Assembly: GCA_048939465.1 (NCBI GenBank)
Contig: JBHLPL010000009.1
Coordinates: 1-32,000 of the forward strand
Source of the DNA: Promethearchaeota archaeon
Lineage (GTDB): Archaea; Asgardarchaeota; Odinarchaeia; Odinarchaeales; JBHLKK01
Direction: 5' to 3'
DNA: 32,000 nt
The translations under genes were made by a program, and so were the position numbers. A model generated the notes under the pieces. That model was given only the letters and a program-made list of their open reading frames with translations, was not told the DNA's origin and did no database searches. This document shows positions 1,774 through 31,924 of the stretch, one piece after another (the first letter of the stretch is position 1; every line of letters starts with the position of its first letter).

Positions 1774-2077
1774 ATGGATGAGGAAGCGGACGAGAAGGTA
1801 AATCAAGCAATGACAGTATTAGGCATGATAGCTGAAGATACCTCTGTCCCCAGAAACATCAGACGTGCAGCAAATGAGGCTACTGATGCACTTCAAGACT
1901 CCAAGATTGAAAGTATGGCTGTGAGGGCATCAAATGCGATATCGATTCTCGACGAGGTATCTCAAGATCCAATCCGTTAAGAGTGTCCTCTTGGCGGGGA
2001 TAAACTGCCCCTTACACGCCAGAACAAAAATATGGAATGTAGTGAGCATACTTGAAACCGTCAAAGACTATGAATAG
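1774..2077 (+). CDS. UPF0147 family protein, two exons (1774-1972 and 2004-2077), 90 aa after splicing
   Basis: Exon 1 gives ...DTSVPRNIRRAA...RASNAISILDEVSQDP. The conserved tail NCPLHARTKIWNVVSILETVKDYE* continues in another frame after a 31-nt insert. Confidence 0.92.
1973..2003 (+). other. BHB intron (31 nt) in UPF0147 mRNA
   Basis: Central helix AUCC(1967-70)/GGAU(1998-2001), 3-nt bulges AAU(1971-73) and AAA(2002-04), intron stem CCGUUAAGAG/CUCUUGGCGG (10 bp including 2 G-U) with a UGUC loop. Cutting 2 nt into each bulge restores CCA-AAC-UGC (P-N-C). Confidence 0.9.
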
Positions 2078-2277: not shown

Positions 2278-2459
2278 GCCGGGGTAGCCAAGTGGTCTAC
2301 GGCGCTGGCCTCGAGAGCAGCTAACATAAAAGGAAGAATACATAAAAGACAACGGAAATCCTTTGGGACAGATTGAACAAGAAAGTCAGTGACGCAGTAG
2401 CGTCTCGCGGGTTCGAATCGGCGCTACATTACGCCGCGAGAATCCTGCCCCCGGCGCCA
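2278..2459 (+). tRNA. tRNA-Ser(CGA) with two introns (37/38: 2316-2383; 59/60: 2418-2442) and encoded CCA
   Basis: Acceptor stem GCCGGGG/CCCCGGC, discriminator G plus CCA, anticodon arm CTGGC-CTCGAGA-GTCAG after removing intron 1, long variable arm GACGC-AGTA-GCGTC, T arm GCGGG-TTCGAAT-CCTGC after removing intron 2. Confidence 0.93.
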
Positions 2460-2538
2460 CTTAATACAACCCATGTTACCGATCAATTAGTGCATCAATC
2501 AACACGAGTCGGGATTGGAGGGTTGGTGTTGAGGCTGT

Positions 2539-2863
2539 GTAGACTGCCCCCCGCTTTCGCAGGGAGCCTTCCATCAGAGGTTGAGTATGGTGCACCGCAC
2601 CACGCAACCCCACCGTCAACAGGACGAAAGAGCCTGCCTACAGGGACTCCAGCTCTGGTAAACTGGGAAAAGACGTTGTACCCTCGAACTTCCCGCACCT
2701 TATCTCATCAATCCCCCCCGCGGGTCATTAACCGTTTCCACATGGGAGAAAAGCGTGCCTTTAGCCCTATTCGAATATATTGCAAGAATGTAGAATGTAC
2801 TTGGAGACGGTTCAATCACTCTCCGCCCTTCCGGACGGAGTTTCCTTGAGGTGGTTCAGGTGT
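2539..2863 (+). mobile_element. Element E1 (325 nt): ORF-less IS200/IS605-like (omegaRNA/HEARO-like) insertion near the 5' end of porG
   Basis: Starts GTAGACTGCCCC plus a hairpin, ends with hairpin CTCCG..CGGAG-TTTCCTTGAGGTGGTTCAGGTGT directly before ATGAA. Its 3' half aligns with E2 and E3. Family assignment is inference from end motifs. Confidence 0.7.
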
Positions 2864-3769: not shown

Positions 3770-4065
3770 ACTATTCCTCTCCTGTCGAAGGAGCTTATGA
3801 CTATGCTAGACCTCAATTCCCGAGCGGGCTTTGGTTCCGGTACACGCCAAATCAGGGGGCAGTTTACATCGTCCCAGCCCACTAGTCCCCATATAACGTC
3901 GGGGTTTATAGTTTATTTCACACATCTTCCCCACAGGTCGGTGACCGTTTCCGCGTCAGAGAGGGGTGCGCCTTTAGATATTTCAGCAAATATATAACAA
4001 ACGTATTTGAAGGCCACTAAATTCCTCTCCTCCCTTTCGGACGGATTCTCCTTGAGGTGGTTCAA
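3766..4065 (+). mobile_element. Element E2 (300 nt) at the porD/porA junction
   Basis: Starts GTAAACT (overlaps the porD TAA), ends TTCTCCTTGAGGTGGTTCAA directly before ATGAA (porA start). About 70% ungapped identity to E3 over 138 nt by hand count. Confidence 0.8.
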
Positions 4066-5277: not shown

Positions 5278-5570
5278 ACTGCCCCTCCGATAAGAAAGGA
5301 GTTTATGACTATGTTTGACTACAATTTCTTCAGGGGGTCCGGTTGCATCACATGCCAAATCAGGGGACGGTTTATAGCGTCCCAGCCCAGTGACCCGCAC
5401 ACAGCGTCGAGGTATGTAGTCTCTTTCACCCATGCTCCTCATCCGTTATTAGCCGCTTCCTCCCTCCGAGAGCGTACCTCTGAATCCATTAGCACGGTTG
5501 AAACGAACGTATTTAAGGACCGCCCAATTGATCCCTTACTTTTCGGAAAGAAACTTCGTGAGGTGGTTTG
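5274..5570 (+). mobile_element. Element E3 (297 nt) at the porA/porB junction
   Basis: Starts GTAGACTGCCCC (overlaps the porA TAG), ends CTTCGTGAGGTGGTTTG directly before ATGAA (porB start). Homologous to E2. Confidence 0.8.
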
Positions 5571-7082: not shown

Positions 7083-7643
7083 TTACCCAAGAACGTATCC
7101 AATTTGTTTGACAAGTTCACGACGTTCTTTGCGTTGATCGTCTGTTTCTATTCTTTTCACAGATTGTCCGTCCACAAAGCCCAATACTGCACGGCCTTCC
7201 ACACCATTGATGCCCACTTCTGCGACTATTACCTTGCAGCGATTCGCAGTTGCGCCGTAGACTATCGCGACATGTGGTAATAGCTTGATACTATTTAGAA
7301 CATTAATCGGCCATGCTCCCTGAATCATGATTACAAATACATGACTTGCCCCGATATTTCTGCAGTTTTCAGCCGTCAATTGCTCTAGTTCGGGGTCGTT
7401 ACTATTGACACGGGTAAGTCTGGGATCTGCTTCATTCATTGCACAAGCAAACTTCACATCACCAGTAGTTACTCCCGGAACTGACATCTGAATGGTCCGG
7501 AAGAGGTCGTCAACAAGTTTTACTGAGAAATTGGGGTCCCTCTACCTCTTGTATTGATCTTAAAGGGATTTCCCCTGTCCGACAATTATCTGATGCTCGG
7601 GTTCCTTCTTAATGTCTATTGAAATGAGTTTTATTTCGCTCAA
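7083..7643 (-). CDS. Adenosine-specific kinase family (DUF355/PAE2307-like), two exons (7643-7570 and 7530-7083), 173 aa after splicing
   Basis: TTG at 7643 with SD GGAGG 7 nt upstream gives MSEIKLISIDIKKEPEHQIIVGQG, then NFSVKLVDDLF...NEADPRLTRV..ND..L...IGASHVFVI...WPINVLN...ATAN...GFVDG...ERRELVKQIGY. Confidence 0.9.
7531..7569 (-). other. BHB intron (39 nt) in DUF355 mRNA
   Basis: Minus strand: helix GGGG/CCCC, bulges AAA and AAU, intron stem UCCCUUUA/UAGAGGGA (8 bp). Two in-frame stops (TAA, TAG) lie inside. Splicing gives GGG-AAU-UUC (G-N-F). Confidence 0.9.
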
Positions 7644-31348: not shown

Positions 31349-31924
31349 CTAAAGGTTGACTTGCGCTGCAAAATAATATGTCGTTTCTCCTTGTCTATCT
31401 ACAACACCGAGAACGAGCCTTTTCCTAGAACTTGTTGCCGCTTTTATTATCTTCTCCAGGCTTGACAATTCTAAAGGTACTCCTTCAACCACAACATGTA
31501 TGAGGTATTTCGCCACGTCTTCATTCAAAACCGCTCCTCTTTCATAAACCCGAAAATCAACTCCGCTCCCATACCCAAGACGTACTATGTATCCTCTGCT
31601 TCGCAGATCCCGATACACAAGATATTTCGTCCATATCCTTGGGTCCACTTCTAATGTGCTTTTTAGGATACCCTGGAAGTCAAGCTCCTGTTTATTCTCA
31701 TCAAAAACTCTAAGCCTTCTCCGTTCCATAAGCAGTAGAGCCTCTACTATTTCAAGATTCAGCTTGTCCTCCTCCAGGATGCTTCCATAATAGCCAGCCT
31801 CATAAGTTGATGTTGCCTTTTCACCACTCACAATTACGCTATTGTCAACTAATACGCCTTCAACGATCTCTTCCTCTTCCAACTTTTTCCCCGCCTGAAG
31901 GTCTTGTTTCATCTTTGGAACCAC
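31349..31924 (-). CDS. endA: tRNA splicing endonuclease subunit, probably the structural (beta) subunit of an (alpha-beta)2 enzyme
   Basis: LEIVEALLL, YLVYRDLRSRGYIV, DFRVYERG, RKRLVLGVVDRQGETTYY. The catalytic His segment reads EDVAKY and the KYG/KFG segment reads GYGSG. Confidence 0.85.
   Translation of the reverse strand: MVPKMKQDLQAGKKLEEEEIVEGVLVDNSVIVSGEKATSTYEAGYYGSILEEDKLNLEIVEALLLMERRRLRVFDENKQELDFQGILKSTLEVDPRIWTKYLVYRDLRSRGYIVRLGYGSGVDFRVYERGAVLNEDVAKYLIHVVVEGVPLELSSLEKIIKAATSSRKRLVLGVVDRQGETTYYFAAQVNL

What the first reader, a model, noticed from the sequence alone, without database searches (positions are those of the whole stretch)
1967..2006. Canonical BHB intron interrupts the UPF0147 protein gene
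Seen in sequence: the gene stops early (DPIR*) and its conserved tail resumes in another frame. The 31-nt insert folds into a 4-bp helix, two 3-nt bulges and a 10-bp intron stem. Cutting 2 nt into each bulge gives exactly P-N-C-P-L-H-A-R-T. Established knowledge: BHB is the substrate of the archaeal splicing endonuclease, and to my knowledge cbf5 in Crenarchaeota is the only well-characterised spliced archaeal mRNA. Inference: this mRNA is spliced by EndA/RtcB, and pipelines would call it a truncated gene or pseudogene.
Basis: partly seen in the sequence, partly recalled or inferred. Interest (0 to 1): 0.92.

Follow-up and report, generated by a model that had tools for sequence, protein, structure and literature searches.

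The report
tRNA-type intron in Asgard UPF0147 gene
A small conserved gene of an uncultured Asgard archaeon is split by a 31-base insert shaped like a tRNA intron, and comparison with relatives indicates that it is cut out of the messenger RNA, which published work in archaea reports inside a coding sequence only for the gene cbf5.

Summary

- **Gene layout.** The UPF0147 gene (ATG 1774) stops early at 1978-1980, and its tail resumes in another frame. Removing 1973-2003 (31 nt) restores a 90-aa protein that matches Pfam PF03685 end to end.
- **Fold.** The insert forms a 4-bp helix, two 3-nt bulges and a 10-bp intron stem. The exon-side outer helix has only 2 bp.
- **Conservation.** Eight distinct copies carry an insert at the same codon: congeners, metagenomes and Baldrarchaeum. 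The fold is kept through compensatory changes, including one between a synonymous exon base and an intron base.
- **Second site.** Odinarchaeum has a different 27-nt insert of the same shape 8 codons downstream.
- **Selection.** Exon 2 is under strong purifying selection in the spliced frame.
- **Machinery.** The genome encodes a two-subunit EndA (one subunit is in this window) and RtcB.
- **Annotation.** Public annotation calls the truncated proteins.
- **Context.** I verified two further mRNA introns in this genome. Earlier stages of this scan noted the same kind of intron on other Asgard DNA; I found no published report.

Novelty: a new member of a known kind. Confidence about 0.88.

The parts
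1774..1972 (+). Exon 1 of the UPF0147 gene: 66 codons plus the first base of the Asn codon. GAGGT lies 9 nt upstream of the ATG.
   Evidence: Pfam PF03685 positions 2-61; 13-16 synonymous against 1-2 non-synonymous differences between this copy and the three copies of its genus.
1973..2003 (+). 31-nt bulge-helix-bulge intron in phase 1. It carries an in-frame TAA at 1978-1980.
   Evidence: Removing it restores the full-length protein. It differs from the copies of its genus at 4-8 of 31 positions, and across all 8 copies 96% of pair cells stay base-paired.
2004..2077 (+). Exon 2: the last two bases of the Asn codon, 23 further codons, and stop TAG 2075-2077.
   Evidence: Pfam positions 61-81; 0 non-synonymous against 4-6 synonymous differences between this copy and the copies of its genus in the spliced frame, and 0 against 12 between the two Baldr-type copies.
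1967..1970 (+). Central helix H, exon strand (AUCC). It pairs with 1998-2001.
   Evidence: In one search the pair at columns 9:41 changes U-A to C-G together in the Baldr-type copies. This links a synonymous exon base to an intron base.
1971..1973 (+). 5' bulge AA|U, with the predicted cut after 1972.
   Evidence: The two exon bases never vary; the intron base is U or A.
1974..1997 (+). Intron hairpin h': 10-bp stem 1974-1983 with 1988-1997, and loop 1984-1987.
   Evidence: Five of its pairs show changes on both sides.
1998..2001 (+). Central helix H, intron strand (GGAU).
2002..2004 (+). 3' bulge AA|A, with the predicted cut after 2003.
   Evidence: The middle intron base varies (A, U or G); the exon base is constant.
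31349..31924 (-). EndA paralogue of 191 aa, probably the structural beta-type subunit of the splicing endonuclease. This is the machinery, not part of the gene.
   Evidence: PF01974, 77.3 bits; best match is M. jannaschii EndA 1A79, and the position of its catalytic His (EHS) reads DVA here. The catalytic-type partner is on contig C90.

Best explanation
Positions 1973-2003 are a genuine archaeal bulge-helix-bulge intron inside the coding sequence of the UPF0147 gene of an Asgard archaeon.

Proposed mechanism:
1. The pre-mRNA folds so that exon bases 1967-1970 pair with intron bases 1998-2001. This 4-bp helix is flanked by two 3-nt bulges and closed by a 10-bp intron hairpin.
2. [quoted passage not shown]
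3. RtcB joins the exons. The 31-nt intron is released, probably as a circle.
4. The spliced mRNA encodes the full 90-aa protein. Unspliced mRNA gives only a 68-aa product, ending three codons into the intron.

Shown here: the anatomy, its conservation through covariation, selection on the spliced frame, and presence of the enzymes. Inferred: cleavage, ligation and circularisation in the cell.
For: 1. **Frame restoration.** Removing the 31 nt gives a product that matches PF03685 over 2-81 of 81 positions, against 2-61 unspliced. It aligns without a gap across the junction to the solved homologues 2QZG and 2QSB.
2. **Fold.** The minimum-free-energy fold and RNAalifold both give the 4-bp helix, a 3-nt bulge and the stem.
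3. **Covariation.** In 8 distinct copies at the same codon, 96.1% of pair cells are paired, against 39-49% when the partners are slid. Six pairs change on both sides, and 0 of 500 shuffles reach the covariation score.
4. **Insert lengths.** They are 31, 29 and 27 nt in three lineages. These would need +1, -1 and in-frame-with-stop corrections respectively, and only exact excision at the bulges repairs all three.
5. **Selection.** Exon 2 has 0 non-synonymous and 4-12 synonymous differences in the spliced frame.
6. **No spare copy.** There is one copy per genome and no intact second copy.
7. **Not an assembly error.** DNA contigs from three independent studies span the insert without gaps, and their variant bases mostly keep the stem.
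8. **Machinery.** Two EndA paralogues are present. One resembles the A. pernix catalytic subunit (1.5e-44) and aligns without long gaps through that subunit's N-terminal region. The other lacks the catalytic His. There are also two RtcB genes. PMC5829648 reports (alpha-beta)2 EndA with the broad-specificity L1 loop for Asgard archaea.
9. **Other introns in this genome.** The same genome has further mRNA introns of this shape. I verified window 7531-7569 on the minus strand and pyrG. A neighbouring tRNA gene is found only after removing two inserts.
Against: - There are no RNA data of any kind, so the spliced junction and the circular intron are unobserved.
- The exon-side outer helix has only 2 bp at this site and none at the Odinarchaeum site, so the motif is relaxed rather than strict.
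- The folding energy alone is unremarkable (z = -1.79).
- Covariation rests on 8 sequences from two lineages, so most double changes may trace to one ancestral split.
Confidence: 0.88

Rival explanations
1. The gene is a pseudogene, disrupted by a small insertion and decaying.
For: Taken at face value, the reading frame is broken. Public annotation lists only truncated products.
Against: - Both exons are under strong purifying selection. Exon 2, read in the spliced frame, has 0 non-synonymous changes against up to 12 synonymous ones.
- The disruption is kept at the same codon in three species of the genus and in Baldrarchaeum.
- No intact second copy exists.
Confidence: 0.03
2. The insert is not removed from the RNA and is handled during translation, by ribosomal bypassing, frameshifting or readthrough.
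For: A stop codon right after the break plus a hairpin recalls phage T4 gene 60 (from my own knowledge). In Baldrarchaeum an AAC codon stands at both edges.
Against: - In this genome the codons at the two edges do not match (ATC against AAC).
- The three lineages would need three different recoding events (+1, -1, and a 27-nt in-frame skip), yet all share the endonuclease geometry.
- To my knowledge no bypassing system is known in archaea.
Confidence: 0.02
3. The 68-aa truncated protein is the functional product, and the downstream tail is made separately or conserved for another reason.
For: An ATG-started 47-aa ORF (1934-2077) covers the tail in this genome.
Against: - That ORF is cut by a stop and has no ATG in the tail frame in Baldrarchaeum. 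In Odinarchaeum no ATG, GTG or TTG start codon lies between the intron's stop codon and exon 2.
- The tail completes the Pfam domain and the solved fold collinearly.
- The fold of the insert would then have no reason to covary.
Confidence: 0.04
4. The insert is a sequencing or assembly artefact.
For: The source is a fragmented metagenome-assembled genome of 152 contigs.
Against: Contigs from three independent studies, two other assembled genomes of the genus, and JGI, ENA and Logan assemblies all carry the insert. They differ by strain-level variants and show no gaps.
Confidence: 0.01

Closest known systems
cbf5 pre-mRNA intron of Crenarchaeota (Desulfurococcales and Sulfolobales; Watanabe 2002, Yoshinari 2006, Yokobori 2009 = PMC2738675)
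   Same: [quoted passage not shown]
- A relaxed bulge-helix-bulge fold.
- Predicted cuts between the second and third bulge bases.
- A host with a hetero-oligomeric EndA.
- Patchy distribution, implying gains and losses.
   Different: - A different gene and a different phylum (Asgard).
- The TruB_N domain of cbf5 of this genome is uninterrupted.
- Here one gene carries introns at two sites 24 nt apart in sister lineages.
- Splicing of cbf5 was shown by cDNA and in vitro cleavage. Here it is inferred.
Non-canonical tRNA introns of Asgard archaea and Thermoproteales (PMC11291895; bioRxiv 10.64898/2026.10.13.758758; Marck and Grosjean 2003)
   Same: The same 3-4-3 motif, the same size range and the same enzymes. 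A tRNA gene with at least two inserts lies 200 nt downstream.
   Different: The host RNA is an mRNA. The exon half of the motif is therefore constrained by codons, and unspliced RNA can be translated into a truncated protein.
BHB element in the 5' UTR of Haloferax volcanii HVO_1309 mRNA (PMC7714728)
   Same: An mRNA processed by the splicing endonuclease.
   Different: That element lies in the untranslated leader and does not interrupt a reading frame. The Haloferax enzyme is of a different subunit type from the two-subunit enzyme inferred here (from my own knowledge).
Unconventional cytoplasmic splicing of HAC1/XBP1 mRNA in eukaryotes (IRE1 cleavage; RtcB ligation in animals), named in PMC13149111
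   Same: Protein-only removal of a small intron from an mRNA, which changes the reading frame of the C-terminus. RtcB is the ligase in animals.
   Different: The nuclease is IRE1, not EndA/TSEN. The recognition structure is a pair of stem-loops, and the event is stress-regulated.

Membership tests
Archaeal bulge-helix-bulge (EndA-type) intron | [quoted passage not shown] | tested here: met
   Helix 1967-1970 with 1998-2001; bulges 1971-1973 and 2002-2004. The helix is 100% paired in 8 copies.
Archaeal bulge-helix-bulge (EndA-type) intron | Cutting after the second base of each bulge yields the functional RNA | tested here: met
   In silico only. The junction restores the full PF03685 match and collinearity with 2QZG. 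The same rule works for the 29-nt and 27-nt inserts of relatives.
Archaeal bulge-helix-bulge (EndA-type) intron | Flanking helices h (exon side) and h' (intron side) of the strict hBHBh' form | tested here: inconclusive
   h' is strong at 9-10 bp. h has only 2 bp, though it is paired in all 8 copies, and it is absent at the Odinarchaeum site. This fits the relaxed HBh' class rather than the strict form.
Archaeal bulge-helix-bulge (EndA-type) intron | Structure rather than sequence is conserved (compensatory changes) | tested here: met
   6 pairs changed on both sides, and 0 of 500 shuffles reach the covariation score. The slid controls are 39-49% paired.
Archaeal bulge-helix-bulge (EndA-type) intron | The host encodes a splicing endonuclease able to cut relaxed motifs, and an RtcB ligase | tested here: met
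   a catalytic-type and a His-less paralogue, consistent with an (alpha-beta)2 enzyme; two RtcB genes. Activity was not tested.
Archaeal bulge-helix-bulge (EndA-type) intron | Excision observed in RNA (spliced junction, circular intron) | not testable with these tools
   No RNA run was listed for this DNA.
cbf5 intron lineage of Crenarchaeota | The intron sits in the codon of the catalytic Asp of cbf5 | tested here: not met
   The host gene here is UPF0147. The TruB_N domain of cbf5 in this genome is one uninterrupted match. This intron works like the cbf5 intron but is not a member of that lineage.
UPF0147 protein family (Pfam PF03685) | Full-length match to the family profile above the curated cut-off | tested here: met
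   114.7 bits against a cut-off of 23.6, covering positions 2-81 of 81 after joining the exons.
Self-splicing group I or group II intron, or intein | Ribozyme core of hundreds of bases, or an in-frame protein-splicing domain | tested here: not met
   The insert is 31 nt and contains a stop codon. There is no Rfam match in the window.

The most novel reading that the evidence does not exclude
The UPF0147 intron is one instance of general, obligatory tRNA-type mRNA splicing in this Odin/Baldr-related Asgard lineage. Under this reading, many protein-coding genes carry 20-40-nt endonuclease introns. New ones are gained repeatedly, here at two sites 24 nt apart in one 270-nt gene, both in phase 1 and both after CAA. 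Unspliced transcripts are translationally dead. That would make a relative of the eukaryotic ancestor a prokaryote whose gene expression routinely depends on mRNA splicing.
Probability: 0.6. Interest if true: 0.92.

Novelty: new member of a known kind. Interest (0 to 1): 0.8.

Why it matters
**State of the literature.** Published work treats endonuclease-type introns in archaeal coding sequences as a curiosity of one gene, cbf5, in Crenarchaeota. PMC7714728 says so explicitly.

**What this case adds.** This is a conserved case under selection, in a different gene and in Asgard archaea, the closest known relatives of eukaryotes. A second independent site sits in the same gene, and further examples occur in the same genome. 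Together these suggest that mRNA splicing by the tRNA machinery is a regular part of gene expression there.

**Why that is of interest.**
- It bears on how introns are gained. Half of the recognition motif must pre-exist in the exon.
- It raises the question of how a cell whose transcription and translation are thought to be coupled avoids translating unspliced mRNA.
- It touches the ancestry of protein-only mRNA splicing in eukaryotes (TSEN and RtcB substrates).

**Practical consequence.** Gene callers truncate these genes. WEU40910.1 is an example, so Asgard proteomes and completeness estimates are systematically affected.

Tried and rejected
- **RNA evidence.** No RNA holder was listed in either search. 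The one raw-read DNA run laid (X21) had no reads on the stretch.
- **Genome-wide scan.** I searched for motif-flanked ORF fusions. The correct splice length scored no better than lengths shifted by 1-2 nt (for example 2664 against about 2600), because ordinary gene boundaries pass the filter. I dropped the scan, and it says nothing about intron numbers.
- **Timed-out script.** A first version of the motif-density script timed out. It was rerun.
- **The neighbouring tRNA.** ARAGORN and Rfam find no tRNA or other RNA family in the window. Removing any single motif-bounded insert gives no tRNA. After removing a 25-nt insert in the T-loop, many second deletions give a tRNA call, so the borders and anticodon stay undetermined.
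- **Other genomes that looked split.** G086, G177, G191, G200 and G223 hold two full-length copies each. G386 and G399 are cut by contig ends.
- **Literature.** Searches for UPF0147 introns or Asgard mRNA introns found only tRNA-intron papers.
- **Explanations considered and rejected.** Intein, group I/II intron, mobile-element insertion, translational bypassing, split gene, pseudogene and assembly error; the main ones are set out under rivals.

Full report
**1. What is in the sequence**

The gene starts at ATG 1774, with GAGGT 9 nt upstream. It reads 68 codons and ends ...SQDPIR at TAA 1978-1980. The conserved family tail NCPLHARTKIWNVVSILETVKDYE continues in the +1 frame to TAG 2075-2077.

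The unspliced product covers Pfam PF03685 (UPF0147) positions 2-61 of 81. The two pieces joined with X at the break cover 2-81 of 81 at 114.7 bits. They also align without a gap across the break to the solved homologues 2QZG and 2QSB, with the X opposite Asn.

**2. The fold**

The minimum-free-energy structure of 1955-2020 has these parts:
- helix 1967-1970 with 1998-2001;
- a 3-nt bulge, 1971-1973;
- a 10-bp stem, 1974-1983 with 1988-1997;
- a 4-nt loop;
- unpaired bases after 2001, which include the 3' bulge 2002-2004 of the motif.

Exon bases form one strand of the central helix and the intron forms the other, as in an archaeal tRNA intron. Each cut falls after the second bulge base.

Two qualifications apply. 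The energy is not exceptional on its own (z = -1.79). The exon-exon outer helix has only two pairs, so the motif is the relaxed form rather than the strict one.

Motifs of this geometry with a stem of 9 bp or more occur about once per 10,000 strand positions in this genome (396 real, 294 shuffled). A chance hit at the one useful position is therefore unlikely.

**3. The organism**

The window is contig C139 of a 1.96-Mb, 91%-complete metagenome-assembled genome. It comes from mangrove or sediment samples.
- Its congener G001 is titled Candidatus Hodarchaeota archaeon DZ1B.307 in GenBank.
- The kinship used by the genome tool puts it in the same order as G003. G003 is Ca. Odinarchaeum yellowstonii LCB_4, identified through WEU40910.1 on a 1,418,269-bp contig.

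Either way it is an Asgard archaeon.

**4. Relatives**

Among 400 Asgard genomes, 365 have the gene. Among the rows listed or checked, the gene is interrupted in three genera:
- **This genus (3 genomes).** A 31-nt insert at the same codon.
- **Ca. Baldrarchaeum yapensis.** A 29-nt insert at the same codon.
- **Odinarchaeum (4 genomes).** A 27-nt in-frame insert with a stop codon, 8 codons downstream, between RTK and IW.

Metagenome, ENA and Logan contigs add further copies at the first site, giving 8 distinct sequences. Other genomes that looked split turned out to hold paralogues or to be cut by contig ends. 225 matches were not listed, so the count is a minimum.

**5. Covariation**

On the 8 distinct copies, 96.1% of pair cells form standard pairs, against 39-49% when the partners are slid by 1-3 columns. 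Six pairs change on both sides, and no shuffle of 500 reaches the observed covariation score. RNAalifold independently returns the same helix, bulge and stem.

One double change links a synonymous exon base to an intron base. GAU-CCA pairs with GGAU in this genus, and GAC-CCA pairs with GGGU in the Baldr-type copies.

Within the bulges, only the intron-derived bases vary. The exon-derived ones are constant.

The Odinarchaeum site folds the same way: GCAC with GUGU, two AAA bulges and a 7-bp stem. It is 95.5% paired, but with four close sequences it shows only one compensatory change.

**6. Selection**

In the spliced frame, exon 2 shows 0 non-synonymous differences throughout:
- against 4-6 synonymous differences between this copy and the copies of its genus;
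- against 12 synonymous differences, on about 14 synonymous sites, between the two Baldr-type copies.

Exon 1 behaves alike. The intron of this copy differs from those of its genus at 4-8 of 31 positions.

The tail is therefore translated in a frame that the DNA does not provide. The three lineages would need +1, -1 and in-frame corrections respectively. Only excision at the bulges supplies all three.

In every copy an in-frame stop lies within four codons of the 5' splice site.

**7. Not an artefact**

Contigs of three independent studies span the insert with no gaps and no joints. Their variant bases (for example 1975 C>U opposite G, and 1993 and 1994 G>A opposite U) mostly keep the stem. 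No allele without the intron was seen.

**8. Machinery**

The genome has two EndA paralogues.
- **Contig C90, 204 aa.** It matches the catalytic subunit of the A. pernix heterotetramer at 1.5e-44 and keeps the His of the GPGIDHS motif. It aligns through the N-terminal stretch of that subunit where, from my own knowledge, the broad-specificity loop lies. PMC5829648 reports that loop and the (alpha-beta)2 type for Asgard archaea.
- **This window, 31349-31924 on the minus strand, 191 aa.** It is closest to M. jannaschii EndA but reads DVA where that enzyme has its catalytic His.

Two RtcB genes are present. One has a profile match broken by about 1.4 kb within a single 973-codon open frame, as an intein would give.

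**9. Context in the same genome**

I verified two more mRNA introns.
- **Window 7531-7569, minus strand (39 nt).** It has GGGG with CCCC, two bulges and an 8-bp stem. Removing it extends the PF04008 match from positions 34-153 to 1-153.
- **pyrG on contig C116 (31 nt).** Removing it restores the GIGKG motif.

The ahcY match is fragmented, and the TruB_N domain of cbf5 is intact. A class II tRNA gene at about 2278-2462 is invisible to ARAGORN and Rfam. ARAGORN calls it only after two inserts are removed.

First-stage notes of this scan list many more candidates in this genome and in other Asgard genomes. I used these as leads only.

**10. Known or new**

The library holds no paper on an interrupted UPF0147 gene.
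- PMC7714728 (2020) states that cbf5 is the only reported additional BHB intron in an archaeal mRNA, and adds a 5'-UTR element in Haloferax.
- PMC2738675 describes the cbf5 intron as phase 1, relaxed, and cut between the second and third bulge bases. That matches what is seen here.
- Asgard papers report abundant tRNA introns but no introns in coding sequences (PMC11291895; bioRxiv 10.64898/2026.10.13.758758).

Public annotation lists the truncated proteins.

**11. Verdict**

This is a real, conserved intron under selection, of the splicing-endonuclease type, inside a protein-coding gene. It is a new member of the kind so far represented by cbf5, in a new gene and a new phylum. Splicing itself remains to be shown in RNA.

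Two questions stay open:
- **Shared or separate origin.** The site shared by this genus and Baldrarchaeum may be inherited or gained twice. Five of the nine shared stem pairs are the same pair type in this window and in Baldrarchaeum, which favours common descent.
- **The Odinarchaeum site.** Its intron shows no evident sequence similarity to this one and looks like a separate gain.

Noticed in passing
window 7531-7569 (minus strand), gene 7083-7643: A second mRNA intron of the same kind. It is a 39-nt insert in the adenosine-specific-kinase family gene (PF04008), with GGGG pairing CCCC, bulges AAA and AAU, and an 8-bp stem. Removing it extends the Pfam match from positions 34-153 to 1-153.
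   Followed up: yes
window about 2278-2462 (plus strand): A class II-type tRNA gene (acceptor GCCGGGG...CCCCGGC, GTTCGAAT T-loop, encoded CCA) that ARAGORN and Rfam miss. ARAGORN calls a tRNA only after a 25-nt insert at 2419-2443 and a second insert of about 65-70 nt are removed. The borders and anticodon were not settled.
   Followed up: partly
window 2794-2858, 4000-4064, 5506-5570 (plus strand): Three homologous 65-nt ends (60-78% identical), all ending in GAGGTGGTT. They belong to G+C-rich stretches that I read as non-coding, lying directly in front of successive genes of the pyruvate:ferredoxin oxidoreductase operon. There is no Rfam match for 2150-2900. Their nature is unknown.
   Followed up: partly
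window 31349-31924 (minus strand): The probable non-catalytic (beta-type) subunit of the splicing endonuclease lies in the same window. It reads DVA where the M. jannaschii enzyme has its catalytic His.
   Followed up: yes
G000 contig C116:17805-17835 (minus strand), locus L078: A 31-nt insert of the same shape splits the N-terminal GxGKG motif of CTP synthase (pyrG). Removing it restores MTKYIFVVGGVMSGIGKGATAAS.
   Followed up: yes
G000 contig C31:2961-5708 (minus strand), loci L049 and L051: One of the two RtcB genes is a 973-codon open frame. Its profile match is broken by about 1.4 kb, as an intein would give.
   Followed up: no
G000 contigs C118:315-951 and C24:7080-7271, loci L079-L081: The S-adenosylhomocysteine hydrolase match is broken into pieces with stops between them. 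This is consistent with several small inserts, as a first-stage note claims.
   Followed up: partly
loci L025, L021, L024, L023 (Odinarchaeum genomes G003-G006): The Odinarchaeum UPF0147 gene has its own 27-nt in-frame intron, 8 codons downstream of the site in this window. GenBank WEU40910.1 is the product truncated at the stop inside it.
   Followed up: yes
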